Source: a virus (lineage: Duplodnaviria; Caudoviricetes). Taken from it: a stretch of 64,000 bases of DNA. Made by a program: the position numbers and the translations under genes. Where the stretch lies: the IMG/VR virus record IMGVR_UViG_3300000553_000030, positions 1,805-65,804 of that record, one strand, 5' to 3'. The notes under the pieces were generated by a model. It was given only the letters and a program-made list of their open reading frames with translations, did no database searches and was not told the DNA's origin. Below are positions 2,463 through 51,019 of the stretch, piece after piece (positions within the stretch are counted from its first letter, which is position 1; each line of letters begins with the position of its first letter).

Positions 2463-3410
2463 TTAAAATGTAAAAAACTGTTCTGCTATTCTGACACTAA
2501 TCGATGGATATTTCCAACCAAGGACATCGAACAATCCCCTTTTCTTTGGTTTGTTTGTGGTAAATTTGCTTTTTAACTCCTGTTCGTACATCCCGCGACG
2601 ATCTACGTATTCTGTGATAAAGTCCAATATTTCCTTCGGATCAGTTCCGTCACTCTTTAACGCTAAACAATCAATTCCATATTGGTTTTCTTTGAGATAT
2701 ACATATCGAATCTTTTGCCCAGTATAAATTGGTTCAACCGTTTTACTAAGACCAAGTTTAGCCAACAAATCGTTATAATGTAACGCGGCTTTTACTTGGG
2801 CAGGGGACCCCCCGATGATTTCAAAACGCTGCCTTCCTTTAGGATTATAATCTTTATCCCCCTTCCTAGACATGAATTTAACAGAGGTTGATTTAGCACC
2901 ATCAAATAGTTCAATATCCTTTAATCCCTCTTCAAATTTGATAATTTTGTCGTCAATCTCTTTTTGGTCTTTATTAGTCAAAATCATTTCCATGATTTCT
3001 TTCATAAAGTTACTAAATTTTGGTGGGAATGATGAACGGACAACATCGATGCCCTTAACATCCATCTTACTACAGTTGTTGCCGCCTTCATTTACAATCC
3101 ATTGACAATATCTTTTCTTGGCTATCCAAATGGCAGATTCTGCAACCATTTCCTGTTTAATAAAGAATTTATGAACCTTAACATTAAATAATCGTTTGGC
3201 TAACACATCGACCATCCCGTTGATATGAGATTGGACATCTCCTGTAATTGCCAGTGTCGCTTTAATCATTTCCTCGCGGTTTTTACGGTCAATATTTGGA
3301 TACCGTTTTTCAATTAATGGTATAGATGATGCAAACGCTGAATCTGTGTCGCTGTAAATTACGTGGTCCGTATTACATGGTAATTCTTCAATTGTTATTA
3401 TTTTCTTCAC
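2463..3410 (-). CDS. Family B DNA polymerase, C-terminal part (motif C, thumb)
   Basis: VIYSDTDS, AKKRY, KGIDVVRSS motifs; GTG start 4 nt after GAGGTG; 23-nt overlap with the upstream part. Confidence 0.9.
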   Translation of the reverse strand: MKKIITIEELPCNTDHVIYSDTDSAFASSIPLIEKRYPNIDRKNREEMIKATLAITGDVQSHINGMVDVLAKRLFNVKVHKFFIKQEMVAESAIWIAKKRYCQWIVNEGGNNCSKMDVKGIDVVRSSFPPKFSNFMKEIMEMILTNKDQKEIDDKIIKFEEGLKDIELFDGAKSTSVKFMSRKGDKDYNPKGRQRFEIIGGSPAQVKAALHYNDLLAKLGLSKTVEPIYTGQKIRYVYLKENQYGIDCLALKSDGTDPKEILDFITEYVDRRGMYEQELKSKFTTNKPKKRGLFDVLGWKYPSISVRIAEQFFTF

Positions 3411-5160
3411 ATTTCACCTCATAAACAATTTCGTATGTGCCATCATCATATGTTACCTTATATTTTTTACCGAGTTCTTTTTTGTAATAATTGTTTAATA
3501 CATTACCAGCAAATTTAATAATCTCTTGACCTGAAATAGTGACTGCTTCTGCGCAATAATGGTTGTAAAATCTAAAGCTTGGAAGCCCAGTAACACCATA
3601 AATACTATTGGACAAAATCTTCAATGTCATCTGCTTTCTATTCAACACAATATATTCATCATGCTTACCAGCCCTTTTCAGAACATCGGCTTTCTTTCTT
3701 ACGACTTTTCTATCTTCAATCCATCTCTCAATTACGGTAGGAATAACTCCGGGAGTAGTTAGATTGAATAATGCCCCGTTAGATGCTACTGAATAATTCC
3801 CCCTGGCAATCAATTCCTTAAATTGTTCAATGGTATACTTTGTTCCGCTTACAGAAACTTCTGTCAACTTATTATTCAAATAATCGTCAGGTTTCCACTT
3901 ATCTACAACACCAACTAGCGTTTCTGGACTTATGTTCAGGCTTTGGATAATACTCGGATATAGGGATTGCATATCCAAATCGTACACCCAATCGTATTTT
4001 CCGGGAACCGGTTCCTTAACAAATGCTCCAATAAACGTAGGACCATCTTCATCACCATCTTCACTTTCTTCAATGTCAAGTTCTACATCAATTTGTAGTG
4101 TAGGTTTGTTACAGGCAATCAAATTGTTGCGTTTCAAATATGTCAAAATAGCACCTTCCAAGAACCTCGAAGATTTTTCAAAATATTCATAAGGAACATG
4201 GCAAAAGTGACAAATTTCTCTGGCTTGGTCAATGTAATTATATTTCTTATCCAATTCAACAACGATTTTAACGTCATTCAAGTTATATTCGATATATTTT
4301 TTGATATCGGTTTTGTAAAGATTGTTCAAACTACCAGTGTATTCTGTTTTACCAATACCAACTTCTTTCTTACCAATTTTTCCCAGTTGATATGATGCTT
4401 CGTTGACACCGCTATACCGCTTATACATAGGATAATAATCTAATGCGGTACATACACCAGCAATAATCACTTCGTCTTTGTACTTTGATTGATATGTTAC
4501 TCCAATCGGAGATAATCGATTGACTTCACGACTTCCCATTGTATTCTTAATACGATTATAAAGATATGGAATATCAAATCCAATTGATTCAATTCCGGGA
4601 GTAGAACTATGGGTGCCTCTCGAATTCCACCCGGTAACAATCGTTGGTTGGATTTCTTCCCAAACATTCAAAAATGCATATAATAATGACTGTTCATCCT
4701 TAAATGAACGCAATTTCAATTCGTTTGTATCGGAATCTTCGATTAGACCATCAGCATCCAAGATTAATGATGTATATTTCTGAGTGGTTTTATCATATAA
4801 AGAAATTGCCGTGATTTTCTTATCGGCAAGCTTCATATTGGCAAAACCACCTTCAACATCAGTTTCAATATCAAGAACAACTATATTATGCCCGGTGGAA
4901 ATTTCATCACTATCATAATACCCTTCAATCAAAGCTCTTACAGACAAATCAACATCTGATTCAAATAATGATGGATCTTTTGGGTTTGCATACGTAGTTC
5001 GTTCAAGTTTATCACCAAATACGGATGTATATGTACCAACAGGAGAACGGCGATAGGCATAATTTAATTGGGCATGAGGAATGACCATTGGATCGGGCAA
5101 TTGGTCATCAAATATATAAATTCTCTCATTTCTCTTATCGTTATATACCGTTTTGTACAT
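3388..5160 (-). CDS. Family B DNA polymerase, N-terminal part (3'-5' exonuclease, motifs A and B)
   Basis: LDIET, VTGWN...FDIPY, YNLND exonuclease motifs; DLDMQSLYPS and KILSNSIYG polymerase motifs. Confidence 0.92.
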   Translation of the reverse strand: MYKTVYNDKRNERIYIFDDQLPDPMVIPHAQLNYAYRRSPVGTYTSVFGDKLERTTYANPKDPSLFESDVDLSVRALIEGYYDSDEISTGHNIVVLDIETDVEGGFANMKLADKKITAISLYDKTTQKYTSLILDADGLIEDSDTNELKLRSFKDEQSLLYAFLNVWEEIQPTIVTGWNSRGTHSSTPGIESIGFDIPYLYNRIKNTMGSREVNRLSPIGVTYQSKYKDEVIIAGVCTALDYYPMYKRYSGVNEASYQLGKIGKKEVGIGKTEYTGSLNNLYKTDIKKYIEYNLNDVKIVVELDKKYNYIDQAREICHFCHVPYEYFEKSSRFLEGAILTYLKRNNLIACNKPTLQIDVELDIEESEDGDEDGPTFIGAFVKEPVPGKYDWVYDLDMQSLYPSIIQSLNISPETLVGVVDKWKPDDYLNNKLTEVSVSGTKYTIEQFKELIARGNYSVASNGALFNLTTPGVIPTVIERWIEDRKVVRKKADVLKRAGKHDEYIVLNRKQMTLKILSNSIYGVTGLPSFRFYNHYCAEAVTISGQEIIKFAGNVLNNYYKKELGKKYKVTYDDGTYEIVYEVKCEENNNN

Positions 5161-5166
5161 TGACCC

Positions 5167-5195
5167 AATATAACCGATTCCCGTTTAATTGTCAA
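5167..5195 (-). promoter_or_regulatory. Sigma70-type promoter for polB, probably leaderless
   Basis: TTGACA-17nt-TATATT, then 6 nt to ATG 5160. Confidence 0.65.
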
Positions 5196-49582: not shown

Positions 49583-50661
49583 TTTATGTTCCTTTTTAGT
49601 TTGTCGTGATTTTTATCATCAATTGTGATAATTTTTTTATTTATAAAATTTTCAATATATTCTAAATTATACTTTGATATGTCAAACGTATTTTCTGTTA
49701 TATACTTACAAGTTAAATTATACTCTTTACAATATTCTTTCAGTGCATTATACTTTAACACATTTTCATCAGTAGTCAACAATTTATATGGTTTTATTTC
49801 ACAAATTTCGATGCCATTTATTACAATATCGGGACAATATGTTCTATGAATATTCTTCATTTTATATTTTATTCTATGTTTGGATGGGGCAAATTTAATA
49901 TTATTTTCCATTAAATATAAAAATATTTTAAGTTCTAATGTTGATCTACAAAAATATATATTTCCCACGCGATTGATATGACATTTTACTCCTATTCCAG
50001 CTTCTTTTCCGGGAGATTTTCCGTACATTGGATTTAACTTTCCAGTTTGTGGATTGTCTTTTGGATAACCATATCGTTCACATAATTGTTTACATTTTTT
50101 TTCACCAAACCCAAATTCTTTTTTAAGTTGTTTGTATACCATTTCTTTATAAATTAATCTGAATTTTAATTCTTCAAATCGTTTAATTATTTCAGGTGTT
50201 ATTGGTTTTAATTCTTTATTTTTTAATGTTAATGCTGACAATTTTCCGTTTACTCGTGCAAGTTTGGCTTTCTTTTTTTTACCATTCTCTACAGCAATAT
50301 CATACAATCCAACAAAAATCAAATAATTGTTAACCTGTTTAATCGGTATATTTATCAATTTCCAAACATCATATGTTGTATAACCTTCATTTTGTATGCC
50401 GTTTCTTATTTTTTCACCAAAAGTATCGTGAACATTTAAATTTTGAAAATAATGACGGTTATCAACATCTTGTTTTGATTTATTAGATTTATACAATTGA
50501 TTATTTTCTTTTAATTTATTATATACACCATTGGCCTTTGCTATTCTATGTATCGGTTTTATCCCAATCAACATGCTATTTGCAATGTCTACCTGTCCCA
50601 TTCCACAATTTATAAAATTAATCAATTTTTGCTCATCTACTATTGTTTTTTTCATATACAT
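49579..50661 (-). CDS. Free-standing TnsA-like PD-(D/E)XK endonuclease inside uvsX
   Basis: GKLNPMYGK, CRSTLE...TYCPDI...EIKP; ATGA-coupled to the next piece. Confidence 0.75.
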   Translation of the reverse strand: MYMKKTIVDEQKLINFINCGMGQVDIANSMLIGIKPIHRIAKANGVYNKLKENNQLYKSNKSKQDVDNRHYFQNLNVHDTFGEKIRNGIQNEGYTTYDVWKLINIPIKQVNNYLIFVGLYDIAVENGKKKKAKLARVNGKLSALTLKNKELKPITPEIIKRFEELKFRLIYKEMVYKQLKKEFGFGEKKCKQLCERYGYPKDNPQTGKLNPMYGKSPGKEAGIGVKCHINRVGNIYFCRSTLELKIFLYLMENNIKFAPSKHRIKYKMKNIHRTYCPDIVINGIEICEIKPYKLLTTDENVLKYNALKEYCKEYNLTCKYITENTFDISKYNLEYIENFINKKIITIDDKNHDKLKRNIK

Positions 50662-50701
50662 TCCATTGGTCGTATACTATAAATAGTAGGATAGGTAACG
50701 A

Positions 50702-51019
50702 TTATTCAATAATAACTTTAATTTTTGTGTCTTCGGTGACACAGCCTTCCAAACCATTTAATTCAACCATACGACCCACAGGCAAACCGCCATGCGGCTT
50801 ATTACTAATTGCCAAATCCAATAATGCATTTCCTGTTGATACCCAATCTGTTATAGTAGAGGGATCGTCTTGTTCATCCAAGAAATATGCCATTTTTCCA
50901 CCATCTTTATTTGATTTATTTAATACATCGGCCAAGTCAGATAACAATTCATCCTTGGTATCTGGTTTTACGTCAACATTTATATTTTCTGTGATATTTT
51001 CGCATTTCTTTTTAGCCAT
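50702..51019 (-). CDS. UvsX/RecA N-extein plus 13-aa split intein N-part
   Basis: WVSTGNALLDLAI...GGLPVGRMVELNGLEG|CVTEDTKIKVIIE*. Confidence 0.9.
   Translation of the reverse strand: MAKKKCENITENINVDVKPDTKDELLSDLADVLNKSNKDGGKMAYFLDEQDDPSTITDWVSTGNALLDLAISNKPHGGLPVGRMVELNGLEGCVTEDTKIKVIIE

What the first reader, a model, noticed from the sequence alone, without database searches (positions are those of the whole stretch)
2463..51019. Genome-wide 'genes in pieces' system: five split inteins plus intein-less splits, with endonuclease ORFs in the breaks
Seen: dUTPase is in 2 pieces, helicase in 3 and UvsX in 3. Every break has Cys-started IntN and HN-ended IntC halves with a separate endonuclease ORF between them. 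Two glycosyltransferases are split by endonuclease cassettes without inteins. The downstream piece usually overlaps the endonuclease stop (44 nt at 13341, 17 nt at 41523, ATGA at 49582, 20 nt at 47631, ATGA at 10294), and a TATTTAT motif precedes the inserted endonucleases. Known: fractured phage genes (split intein plus free-standing endonuclease) have been described from metagenomes. Inference: five pairs co-expressed in one infected cell must be mutually orthogonal, and coupling the C-piece to the endonuclease may lock the invader in.
Basis: partly seen in the sequence, partly recalled or inferred. Interest (0 to 1): 0.9.

Follow-up and report, generated by a model that had tools for sequence, protein, structure and literature searches.

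The report
Phage genes fractured by split inteins
A lake phage carries three replication and repair genes cut into eight pieces by five split inteins, each with a homing-endonuclease gene in the break, plus two sugar-transferase genes cut without inteins: a dense example of a known arrangement, with unusually short intein halves.

Summary
dUTPase (2 pieces), a DnaB/gp41-type helicase (3) and a RecA/UvsX recombinase (3) are broken at five points. Each break has a Cys-started IntN, an HN-ended IntC followed by C/S/T, and a free-standing endonuclease ORF between them. Related contigs carry uninterrupted helicase and recombinase genes in which the window's exteins abut to the codon. Two glycosyltransferases are also split by endonuclease cassettes without inteins; three related phage records hold them unsplit.

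This is the "fractured gene" arrangement of Dassa et al. 2009, which already reported the endonuclease/IntC overlaps, promoter-like elements and an intein-less split.

- Three of the five inteins are atypically split. IntN is 13, 15 and 67 aa, and block B lies in IntC.
- These inteins are widespread in metagenomes, and each helicase and recombinase site also occurs empty and with a contiguous intein.
- TATTTAT is a phage-wide start-proximal motif, not specific to the endonucleases.
- Overlapping junctions are no commoner after endonucleases than elsewhere, so the "lock-in" idea has no support.

Trans-splicing and orthogonality remain inferred. I rate it a new member of a known kind, of moderate interest. 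The 13-aa IntN family and the natural three-piece ligations are the useful parts.

The parts
11906..12415 (+). dUTPase N piece: extein aa 1-79 (11906-12142) plus IntN of 90 aa (12143-12412)
   Evidence: Pfam dUTPase profile 2-69. PDB dUTPases align to residues 2-80. Cys at intein position 1.
12473..13384 (+). Free-standing endonuclease in the dUTPase break (303 aa, TnsA-like PD-(D/E)XK C-terminal domain)
   Evidence: Weak Pfam Tn7_TnsA-like_N hit. Paralog of 13894-14790. PHROG hits. Upstream hairpin of -14.8 kcal/mol, z -2.5, pairs the GGAG.
13341..13700 (+). dUTPase C piece: IntC of 36 aa (13341-13448, ..LLHN) plus extein starting CDYRGE
   Evidence: Pfam Intein_splicing profile 123-155 and dUTPase profile 69-128. 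Overlaps the endonuclease ORF by 44 nt.
42275..43093 (-). Helicase piece 1: extein aa 1-205 (43093-42479, ends GAGK) plus IntN of 67 aa (42478-42278)
   Evidence: Abuts ext2 in relatives. Most of the IntN segment is homologous to the N-terminal part of contiguous inteins P0137 and P0154.
41507..42265 (-). Vsr-like (DUF559) endonuclease in helicase break 1; the likely start is an ATG near 42229
   Evidence: Pfam DUF559 26.5 bits against a cut-off of 20.6. Paralogs.
40408..41523 (-). Helicase piece 2: IntC1 of 136 aa (41523-41116, ..LSHN), extein of 145 aa (41115-40681), IntN2 of 90 aa (40680-40411)
   Evidence: Pfam Intein_splicing, PT-HINT, DnaB_C and Hint. Alignment. 156 homologous clusters.
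39325..40374 (-). Vsr-like endonuclease in helicase break 2 (349 aa)
   Evidence: Pfam DUF559 29.8 bits and MTES_1575.
38798..39265 (-). Helicase piece 3: IntC2 of 47 aa (39265-39125, ..YTHN) plus extein of 108 aa starting SAMDDD
   Evidence: Pfam Intein_splicing profile 111-155. Abuts ext2 in 5 of 5 relatives.
50702..51019 (-). Recombinase piece 1: extein of 92 aa (51019-50744, ends GLEG) plus IntN1 of only 13 aa (50743-50705)
   Evidence: 22 of 23 short homologs fetched, most from separate 50%-identity clusters, end in a 13-15 aa IntN; one has 11 aa.
49579..50661 (-). Endonuclease in recombinase break 1 (360 aa, PD-(D/E)XK, TnsA-like)
   Evidence: Weak Pfam Phage_endo_I and PDDEXK_3 hits. 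37% identical to 13894-14790 over 92 aa. phrog_15427 endonuclease.
48722..49582 (-). Recombinase piece 2: IntC1 of 125 aa (49582-49208, ..LNHN), extein of 146 aa (49207-48770), IntN2 of 15 aa (48769-48725)
   Evidence: Residues 7-126 align to positions 19-141 of a fused DnaE intein (4kl5, E 9.7e-8). Residues 30-125 align to positions 34-128 of the gp41-1 intein. RecA profile 62-198.
47612..48673 (-). Vsr-like endonuclease in recombinase break 2 (353 aa)
   Evidence: Pfam DUF559 28.6 bits. A hairpin of -14.4 kcal/mol, z -2.4, covers the AUG.
46822..47631 (-). Recombinase piece 3: IntC2 of 128 aa (47631-47248, ..LNHN) plus extein of 141 aa starting TVSGGK
   Evidence: Pfam RecA profile 198-261 and Intein_splicing profile 107-155. 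A contiguous homolog of this intein is in P0168.
8582..9196 (+). GT4 glycosyltransferase N-terminal half (204 aa; the last 25 aa are absent from unsplit relatives)
   Evidence: Residues 16-179 map to the N part of a 490-aa ORF in L025-L027.
9250..10297 (+). Cassette in the GT4 break: small RHH-like ORF (9250-9399) plus Zn-finger-repeat endonuclease (9392-10297)
   Evidence: Pfam DUF4379 and DUF2726. phrog_559, E 3.7e-74. The small ORF is related to 13764-13904.
10294..11271 (+). GT4 C-terminal half (325 aa; the first 14 aa are extra); ATGA overlap with the endonuclease
   Evidence: Pfam Glycos_transf_1. Residues 15-288 map in the same frame of the 490-aa ORF.
16324..16896 (+). GT2 glycosyltransferase N piece (190 aa; a 34-aa tail is extra)
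   Evidence: Pfam Glycos_transf_2 profile 1-128. Residues 9-156 map to 209-216 aa ORFs.
16938..17979 (+). Cassette in the GT2 break: RHH ORF (16938-17093) plus Zn-finger/Vsr-like endonuclease (17062-17979)
   Evidence: Omega_Repress 2.9e-6 and 56B_RHH 7.7e-5. DUF723 and DUF4379. The nuclease domain is paralogous to 41507 and 45621.
17984..18244 (+). GT2 C piece (86 aa; a 12-aa leader is extra)
   Evidence: Residues 13-72 map 4 codons after the N piece, in the same frame, in L029-L031. The complex model with the N piece scored 0.85 against a best control of 0.00.
13764..14790 (+). Intergenic cassette: RHH ORF (13764-13904) plus TnsA-like endonuclease (13894-14790); ATGA overlap with the next gene, GT4 at 14787
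   Evidence: ParG 5.4e-5. Tn7_TnsA-like_N 4.7e-10.
26172..27442 (+). Intergenic cassette: RHH-like ORF plus Zn-finger/Vsr-like endonuclease, downstream of a complete GT2 gene
   Evidence: The upstream GT2 gene is full length compared with relatives.
45621..46505 (-). Intergenic Vsr-like endonuclease between recombinase piece 3 and the 5'-3' exonuclease gene
   Evidence: Absent from the syntenic stretch of L013.
2463..5160 (-). Family B DNA polymerase in two ORFs (3388-5160 and 2463-3410) that overlap by 23 nt in different frames, with no insert
   Evidence: L037 has a single 891-aa ORF; the window has about 36 extra residues at the junction. The junction is reproduced without indels in contigs of two other runs.

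Best explanation
The window is part of a large freshwater phage genome. Homing-endonuclease genes have invaded it repeatedly.

Five endonuclease genes sit inside intein genes and so convert mini-inteins into split inteins. The sites are dUTPase motif III, the helicase P-loop, a second helicase site, the recombinase P-loop and a second recombinase site. Each host gene is therefore expressed as 2 or 3 polypeptides. The intein halves associate and protein trans-splicing joins the exteins into intact dUTPase, helicase and recombinase. For helicase and recombinase, the middle piece (IntC1-extein-IntN2) must react with two different partners.

Two pairs are split at the canonical site (dUT, Hel2). 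Three are split near the N-terminus (Uvs1 with a 13-aa IntN, Uvs2 with 15 aa, Hel1 with 67 aa), so IntC carries blocks B, F and G.

The endonucleases spread the whole unit by cutting empty or endonuclease-free alleles during co-infection. This step is inferred from the families involved.

Two glycosyltransferase genes were hit by related cassettes (RHH ORF plus endonuclease) without an intein. Their halves most likely work as non-covalent heterodimers or are on the way to loss.

Shown here: the anatomy, the precise insertion points, the conservation of the splicing residues, and the existence of empty, contiguous and split states. Inferred: splicing, orthogonality and endonuclease activity.
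For: Anatomy and domains.

Precise insertion:
- Recombinase exteins abut to the codon in 11 of 11 loci, and in 79 of 79 further loci that hold ext2 and ext3.
- Helicase exteins abut to the codon in 5 of 5 records.

Splicing residues:
- Cys1, the C-terminal HN and a +1 C/S/T are present in 5 of 5 inteins.
- The block-B His is present in 4 of 5.

The recombinase IntC1 aligns to positions 19-141 of solved DnaE inteins and 34-128 of the gp41-1 intein, so it lacks only the first strands.

Conservation in metagenomes:
- 36 clusters share IntC1 of the recombinase. The 11 doubly split forms fetched all end in CVDPxTTxIKIRY.
- 156 clusters share IntC1 of the helicase.
- 22 of 23 short piece-1 homologs fetched end in a 13-15 aa IntN; the other has 11 aa.
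- 7 clusters share the dUTPase IntN, including the window's own. All 6 others fetched keep the same block-B sequence.

All states exist:
- Contiguous inteins at recombinase site 1 (P0030, P0168, Salicola phage SCTP-2) and site 2 (P0168).
- Contiguous inteins at helicase site 1 (P0137, P0154) and site 2 (P0085).
- Empty sites (P0008, P0041).

The cultured Pseudomonas phage PA5oct has the same fractured recombinase P-loop site.

No Rfam family, and so no known intron, is found in the window.

Contigs from other runs bridge the dUTPase locus.

GT halves map in frame onto unsplit ORFs. The complex model for the GT2 halves scored 0.85 against a best control of 0.00. That mark was reached by 51 of 78 solved complexes and 2 of 108 mismatched pairs. 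Contacts agreed in at least 91% and the partner pLDDT was at least 71. The pass may reflect likeness to solved GT-A folds.
Against: - No spliced protein or transcript was observed.
- The dUTPase intein has Thr where block-B His is expected (a five-sequence MAFFT alignment). That could mean a different mechanism or weak activity, although the motif is conserved.
- The recombinase intein 2 has no significant PDB match by sequence.
- Endonuclease assignment rests on Pfam and PHROG hits. The solved family member 3r3p scores only E 0.26.
- The three short IntN peptides resemble each other, so cross-reaction is not excluded.
- Nothing here shows that the split glycosyltransferases or the two-ORF polymerase are active.
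Confidence: 0.82

Rival explanations
1. The intein halves act only as non-covalent dimerisation domains, for some or all pairs and especially dUTPase. The enzyme would work as an assembled but unspliced complex.
For: The block-B His is not evident in the dUTPase intein. Split enzymes held together by element-derived segments are known: the Aeh1 NrdA paper PMC3045599 (seen as a search listing and start of abstract only).
Against: Cys1, HN and the +1 nucleophile are kept in 5 of 5 inteins and across homologs at 50-70% identity. There would be no reason for that if chemistry were dispensable. The insertions sit in active-site motifs (P-loops, dUTPase motif III), where a retained intein would block function.
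Confidence: 0.08
2. The split genes are decaying pseudogenes and the phage relies on host or other phage copies.
For: The window shows decay of mobile elements: a frameshifted endonuclease remnant at 56745-57291 and a fusion of IntN2 to a degenerate nuclease in P0122. The polymerase is in two frames.
Against: All eight pieces are open and retain the catalytic motifs. The same piece architectures recur in dozens to more than a hundred clusters at 50-70% identity. The phage was found in runs from 2012, 2016 and 2020.
Confidence: 0.05
3. The inserts are removed at the RNA level (introns), or the arrangement is an assembly artefact.
For: Endonucleases of the same Vsr-like family also live in group I introns (Dassa 2009 Results).
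Against: No Rfam match at gathering score in 64 kb. Each insert is bounded by in-frame Hint-domain halves. Independent contigs from other runs bridge the dUTPase N piece, endonuclease and C piece, and also the polymerase junction. Near-identical piece proteins occur on many contigs.
Confidence: 0.03

Closest known systems
Fractured genes: split intein plus free-standing homing endonuclease (Dassa et al. 2009, PMC2677866; loci gp41-1, gp41-8, NrdJ-1, IMPDH-1)
   Same: The order on one strand is the same: N extein-IntN, a short gap, the endonuclease, then IntC-C extein. Half of their endonucleases are Vsr-like. The endonuclease 3' end overlaps IntC. Promoter-like elements and some hairpins lie upstream. 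The hosts are phage DNA-metabolism genes, including gp41 helicase.
   Different: This is one contig with five such breaks, two of them doubling up in a single gene. dUTPase and the recombinase are not among the eight host enzyme types named in that paper's Results (UvsX appears there only as a neighbouring ORF). Three of the five are split near the N-terminus, where that paper had one such case (terminase). TnsA-like PD-(D/E)XK endonucleases appear here instead of GIY-YIG.
Atypically split inteins with short IntN (AceL-TerL, GOS-TerL, VidaL, PolB16), as summarised in PMC13014065 (passages read)
   Same: IntN carries only block A. IntC carries blocks B, F and G. The split falls right after the first strands (the S1 position).
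   Different: That paper gives 15-37 aa for natural IntN and aa record-short. The recombinase intein 1 here, and most of its relatives, have 13 aa. I recall, but could not check, that the VidaL inteins came from a T4-like helicase and a UvsX gene of a lake metagenome. If so, they may belong to the same families.
Intein-less genes split by a free-standing endonuclease (Aeh1 nrdA/mobE; SbcD-like locus in Dassa 2009)
   Same: The endonuclease sits between two halves of an enzyme gene. Extra residues absent from unsplit homologs lie on both sides of the break: 25+14 aa in GT4 and 34+12 aa in GT2, against 25+9 aa in SbcD. The downstream half overlaps or abuts the endonuclease stop.
   Different: The hosts are glycosyltransferases. 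The cassette also carries a small ribbon-helix-helix ORF in front of the endonuclease.
Pseudomonas jumbo phage PA5oct/MIJ3 and Salicola phage SCTP-2
   Same: PA5oct gp276 (ends GESG|C plus 16 aa), gp275 and gp274 (starts with an IntC of about 127 aa) show the same fractured recombinase P-loop site. SCTP-2 gp204 has a contiguous intein at that site.
   Different: The identity is low (23-26%). The PA5oct middle ORF has no Pfam match. The MIJ3 paper passages I read mention only the PolB split intein.

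Membership tests
Fractured gene (Dassa 2009) | A conserved enzyme gene broken on one strand, with IntN in frame after the N part and IntC in frame before the C part | tested here: met
   5 of 5 breaks. 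Exteins abut in unsplit relatives.
Fractured gene (Dassa 2009) | A free-standing endonuclease ORF between the intein halves | tested here: met
   5 of 5. Three are DUF559/Vsr-like above the Pfam cut-off. Two are TnsA-like PD-(D/E)XK, assigned by paralogy and PHROGs.
Fractured gene (Dassa 2009) | Trans-splicing restores the host protein | not testable with these tools
   Needs expression or proteomics.
Class 1 intein (HINT) splicing domain | Cys/Ser at position 1, C-terminal His-Asn, and a +1 Cys/Ser/Thr | tested here: met
   5 of 5.
Class 1 intein (HINT) splicing domain | Block B TxxH | tested here: inconclusive
   Present in Hel1, Hel2, Uvs1 and Uvs2 (TNLH; TSEH in the contiguous P0168). The dUTPase intein has TPGT, conserved in the 6 homologs fetched.
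Atypically split intein (short IntN) | IntN holds block A only; IntC holds blocks B, F and G | tested here: met
   Uvs1 (13 aa) and Uvs2 (15 aa). IntC1 aligns to positions 19-141 of a 144-aa intein chain. Hel1 also has block B in IntC, but its IntN is 67 aa because of an insertion that contiguous relatives share.
Vsr-like / DUF559 homing endonuclease | A C-terminal Vsr-type nuclease domain with the E..GD.WH motif | tested here: met
   Pfam DUF559 at 26.5, 29.8 and 28.6 bits against a cut-off of 20.6. The motif is visible. The PDB entry 3r3p scores only E 0.26.
Vsr-like / DUF559 homing endonuclease | Site-specific cleavage of the empty allele | not testable with these tools
   Needs a cleavage assay.
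Intein-less endonuclease-split gene | The two ORFs correspond to consecutive parts of one unsplit homolog | tested here: met
   GT4 and GT2 each map in frame onto single ORFs in 3 of 5 records.
Intein-less endonuclease-split gene | The halves assemble into an active enzyme | tested here: inconclusive
   The GT2 model supports binding (0.85 against 0.00), but this may come from fold likeness. GT4 was not tested. Activity is not testable here.

The most novel reading that the evidence does not exclude
This phage lineage encodes a natural, co-expressed set of five mutually orthogonal split inteins. Two of them have the shortest natural IntN known (13 and 15 aa) and perform a natural three-piece ligation on one protein. 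In addition, RHH-plus-endonuclease cassettes form a distinct self-regulated mobile unit, and their leftover tail and leader peptides hold intein-less split enzymes together.
Probability: 0.3. Interest if true: 0.6.

Novelty: new member of a known kind. Interest (0 to 1): 0.45.

Why it matters
The biology is a textbook-quality snapshot of the homing cycle. In one phage lineage, each helicase and recombinase site can be found empty, with a contiguous mini-intein, and fractured by an endonuclease. That supports the gene-breaking model for the origin of split inteins.

There is also practical value. Split inteins are protein-engineering tools, short IntN fragments are sought for peptide synthesis, and orthogonal sets are scarce. 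A family with a 13-aa IntN, naturally paired in the same protein with a second short-IntN intein, is a ready source of candidates. It is also a natural test of orthogonality among atypically split inteins.

Tried and rejected
- Megablast of 38000-52000 against the phage collection: no match.
- Earlier notes of this scan: none.
- dUTPase relatives: none in 5 related records and none in viral contigs. The unsplit-allele test for dUTPase therefore rests on profile and PDB coordinates only.
- Single-sequence AlphaFold model of the recombinase IntC2: mean pLDDT 31, unusable, so no fold search was run.
- PDB sequence search for IntC2: only chance-level hits. For helicase IntC1: weak hits, with the gp41-1 intein at E 0.037.
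- RNA hairpins upstream of the endonucleases: only 2 of 8 regions fold better than shuffles. The hairpin control described by Dassa is at best partial here.
- Sequencing runs: no RNA holder listed.
- Laid contigs of two 2020 lake runs leave 8817-10331 and much of 13.5-16.2 kb without cover. No contig joins across, so nothing can be said about cassette-free alleles there.
- PA5oct gp275: no Pfam family.
- The papers that first described the VidaL inteins are not held. The link between VidaL and these families is therefore recall only.
- Phrase searches for a dUTPase intein found no paper, and 'atypical split intein' plus UvsX found none. These are narrow searches of open-access text.
- Supplementary files of Dassa 2009 (its locus tables and alignments) could not be seen. 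They might list related sites.
- The idea that the 67-aa helicase IntN is a 12-aa core plus a read-through tail was rejected. Most of it is conserved in contiguous relatives.

Full report
**What the window is.** The window is 64,000 of the 65,804 bases of an IMG/VR virus record that CheckV rates 19% complete. G+C content is about 28-38%. Near-identical sequence occurs in contigs from 24 listed freshwater, lake-water and sediment metagenome runs, 23 of them naming separate studies, dated 2012, 2016 and 2020. Megablast finds no match among cultured phages. By protein, the nearest cultured recombinase is that of Microcystis phage Mel-JY01, at 49.5% identity. The region encodes a gp32-like SSB, a RecA/UvsX-family recombinase, a 5'-3' exonuclease, a DnaB/gp41-type helicase, a ribonucleotide reductase, a family B polymerase, a dUTPase and a block of glycosyltransferases.

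**The observation.** On the + strand lie the dUTPase N piece (11906-12415), an endonuclease (12473-13384) and the dUTPase C piece (13341-13700). On the - strand lie helicase pieces 42275-43093, 40408-41523 and 38798-39265, with endonucleases at 41507-42265 and 39325-40374. Also on the - strand lie recombinase pieces 50702-51019, 48722-49582 and 46822-47631, with endonucleases at 49579-50661 and 47612-48673.

**How the pieces fit together.** Pfam places the pieces on consecutive parts of one profile. For dUTPase these are 2-69 and 69-128; for RecA they are 4-65, 62-198 and 198-261. Intein/Hint models hit the ends of the pieces. Every IntN starts with Cys. Every IntC ends in His-Asn and is followed by Cys, Ser, Ser, Thr and Thr respectively.

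**Unsplit alleles.** The recombinase is one uninterrupted gene in 11 of 11 related viral loci (53-76% identity). The window's three exteins map onto it with no codon missing or added, e.g. L009 2989-3201, 3202-3639 and 3643-4065. The same holds in 79 of 79 further loci that hold ext2 and ext3. The helicase is one 450-474-aa ORF in 5 of 5 related records, again with exact abutment. In the closest relative, the stretch from the recombinase to the end of the helicase is 3.64 kb, against 12.2 kb in the window. For dUTPase I found no close unsplit relative. The break falls inside the conserved GV(V/I)D-x-DYRGE motif when compared with solved dUTPases.

**Type of split.** Two inteins are split at the usual place: dUT with IntN 90 and IntC 36 aa, and Hel2 with 90 and 47 aa. 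Three are not. The recombinase IntN fragments are only 13 and 15 aa, with IntC fragments of 125 and 128 aa. The first helicase intein has IntN 67 and IntC 136 aa. Recombinase IntC1 aligns to positions 19-141 of a 144-residue fused DnaE intein and to 34-128 of the gp41-1 intein. It therefore holds everything but the first strands. Block B (TxxH) lies in IntC in all three. These are atypically split inteins. A 2026 paper (passages read) gives 15-37 aa as the range of natural short IntN fragments and aa record-short. The 67-aa helicase IntN is not a short core with a random tail, because most of it is shared with contiguous relatives (P0137, P0154).

**How common the inteins are, and in what states.**
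- The recombinase IntC1 has 36 homologous clusters among 63 candidates. They fall into a 285-311-aa class and a 398-446-aa class. The 11 short ones fetched all end in a short IntN2 with the core CVDPxTTxIKIRY plus 0-28 further residues. Three fetched long ones have site 2 empty.
- A search with piece 1 found 331 representatives at E up to 0.001. Of 23 short ones fetched, 22 end in an IntN of 13-15 aa and one has 11 aa.
- Contiguous inteins occur at recombinase site 1 (P0030, P0201) and at both sites (P0168). SCTP-2 also has one at site 1.
- The helicase IntC1 has 156 clusters among 224 candidates. Among these, P0041 is 99% identical in IntC1 but has site 2 empty. P0085 has a contiguous mini-intein at site 2. 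P0137 and P0154 have contiguous inteins at site 1. P0122 has IntN2 fused to a degenerate nuclease domain.
- The dUTPase IntN family is small: 7 clusters including the window's own. Two of them sit in a different dUTPase lineage at the same site.
- Pseudomonas phage PA5oct shows the same fractured recombinase P-loop site in a cultured phage. The MIJ3 paper passages I read mention only a PolB split intein in that group.

**The endonucleases.** All-against-all BLAST and Pfam/PHROGs give two nuclease types. The first is a Vsr-like/DUF559 domain in 41507, 39325, 47612, 45621, 17062 and 26315, and in a frameshifted remnant at 56745-57291. The second is a TnsA-like PD-(D/E)XK domain in 12473, 13894 and 49579. 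ORF 9392 shares the zinc-finger repeats of 17062 and 26315. In all there are ten open endonuclease ORFs. Five sit in intein breaks, two sit in glycosyltransferase breaks and three are intergenic; for example, the GT2 gene upstream of the 26315 cassette is full length.

**Intein-less splits.** GT4 pieces 8582-9196 and 10294-11271 map in the same frame of a 490-aa ORF in 3 of 5 related records. GT2 pieces 16324-16896 and 17984-18244 map in the same frame of a 209-216-aa ORF in 3 of 5 records. Both breaks carry extra residues that the unsplit genes lack: 25+14 aa in GT4 and 34+12 aa in GT2. This resembles the SbcD case in Dassa 2009. A complex model of the GT2 halves supports binding, with a score of 0.85 against a best control of 0.00. 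That mark was reached by 51 of 78 solved complexes and 2 of 108 mismatched pairs. The runs agree in at least 91% of contacts and the partner pLDDT is at least 71. The extra tail and leader are in the modelled interface. Because these are halves of a common fold, the pass may reflect likeness only.

**Regulatory claims.**
- The pattern MTATTTATW occurs 29 times against 19.3 +/- 3.4 expected.
- 16 of the 29 sites lie 12-45 nt upstream of a same-strand start codon. Nine of those precede endonuclease cassettes or the remnant, and seven precede other genes.
- Endonuclease 41507 has the variant CTATTTATG, and the cassette at 9250 has TATATAT.
- The motif is therefore real and start-proximal, but phage-wide.
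- Overlap of the endonuclease stop with the next gene occurs in 6 of 10 cases, against 21 of 60 other same-strand junctions (longest-ORF starts). This is not distinctive.
- Stable hairpins upstream of the endonucleases appear in only 2 of 8 regions.

**Alternatives.** No Rfam family reaches its gathering score anywhere in the window, so there is no sign of a known intron. Contigs from other runs bridge the dUTPase N piece, endonuclease and C piece (X2 12134-14648; X9 11932-13380) and the GT2 cassette (X7 16911-18300). This argues against an assembly artefact.

**Comparison with what is known.** The arrangement is that of Dassa et al. 2009 (abstract and Results read). That paper already covers Vsr-like endonucleases, overlaps, promoter elements, one atypical split and one intein-less split. 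New here are the density (five breaks in three genes on one contig), two genes that need two ligations each, dUTPase and a RecA/UvsX recombinase as hosts, the 13-aa IntN family and the RHH ORFs in front of four endonucleases. I recall that the VidaL inteins were named after a T4-like helicase and UvsX, which would make part of this already known to specialists. I could not check that.

**Verdict.** This is a new member of a known kind, of moderate interest.

Noticed in passing
9250-9399, 13764-13904, 16938-17093, 26172-26345 (+): Four small ORFs (about 46-57 aa) sit directly upstream of, and overlap, four endonuclease ORFs. Two match ribbon-helix-helix families (ParG 5.4e-5; Omega repressor 2.9e-6). 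The other two are their paralogs. They suggest a two-gene RHH-plus-endonuclease cassette, perhaps self-repressed. None of the five intein-embedded endonucleases has one.
   Followed up: partly
window-wide, e.g. 888-896, 5901-5909, 40379-40387, 46509-46517, 50678-50686: The motif (A/C)TATTTAT(A/T) lies 12-45 nt before 16 start codons in the sense orientation. Often only 4-5 nt lie between it and the ATG, which would give near-leaderless transcripts if it is a -10-like element. It reads as the reverse complement of the T4 late promoter TATAAATA; that consensus is as quoted in Dassa 2009.
   Followed up: partly
2463-5160 (-): The family B DNA polymerase is in two ORFs that overlap by 23 nt in different frames, with no inserted gene. 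A relative (L037) has one 891-aa ORF. The window has about 36 extra residues at the junction, just before the YxDTDS motif. The junction is identical and free of indels in contigs from a 2012 run and a 2020 run. It is therefore a real split, a programmed frameshift or the scar of a lost cassette.
   Followed up: partly
6841-7358: Contigs of two 2020 lake runs join 6840 directly to 7359, so they lack this 518-nt segment. The segment holds a weak RHH-like match at 6943-7053.
   Followed up: partly
56597-57294 (+): A shortened, frameshifted eleventh endonuclease, with one zinc-finger repeat and then the Vsr-like nuclease domain in another frame. It lies on the opposite strand to its neighbours and is preceded by ATATTTATT.
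   Followed up: partly
17056: One contig of a 2020 run lacks one base here. By my frame arithmetic, that would put the RHH ORF and the endonuclease ORF 17062-17979 in one frame. It is a single contig at depth 5.9 and may be an error.
   Followed up: no
34885-35103, 35105-36250, 44220-44513, 52436-52993 (-): Four otherwise unrelated ORFs begin with a shared MKK(S/T/E)(E/Q)(L/F)K..LI.E motif. Three of them are preceded by the TATTTAT motif. From memory this resembles a capsid-targeting or protease-cleaved leader. Not tested.
   Followed up: no
L035 (PA5oct) 751-3757: In the cultured jumbo phage PA5oct, the recombinase is fractured at the P-loop. gp276 is 82 aa and ends with a 17-aa IntN. gp275 is 477 aa with no Pfam family. 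gp274 starts with an IntC of about 127 aa. The record annotates them as separate proteins.
   Followed up: partly
3388-5160 compared with L032-L034: The polymerase is only about 24-28% identical to that of records G002-G004. Their recombinase exteins are 46-59% and their helicase exteins 43-57% identical to the window's, which suggests the polymerase gene has a different history.
   Followed up: no
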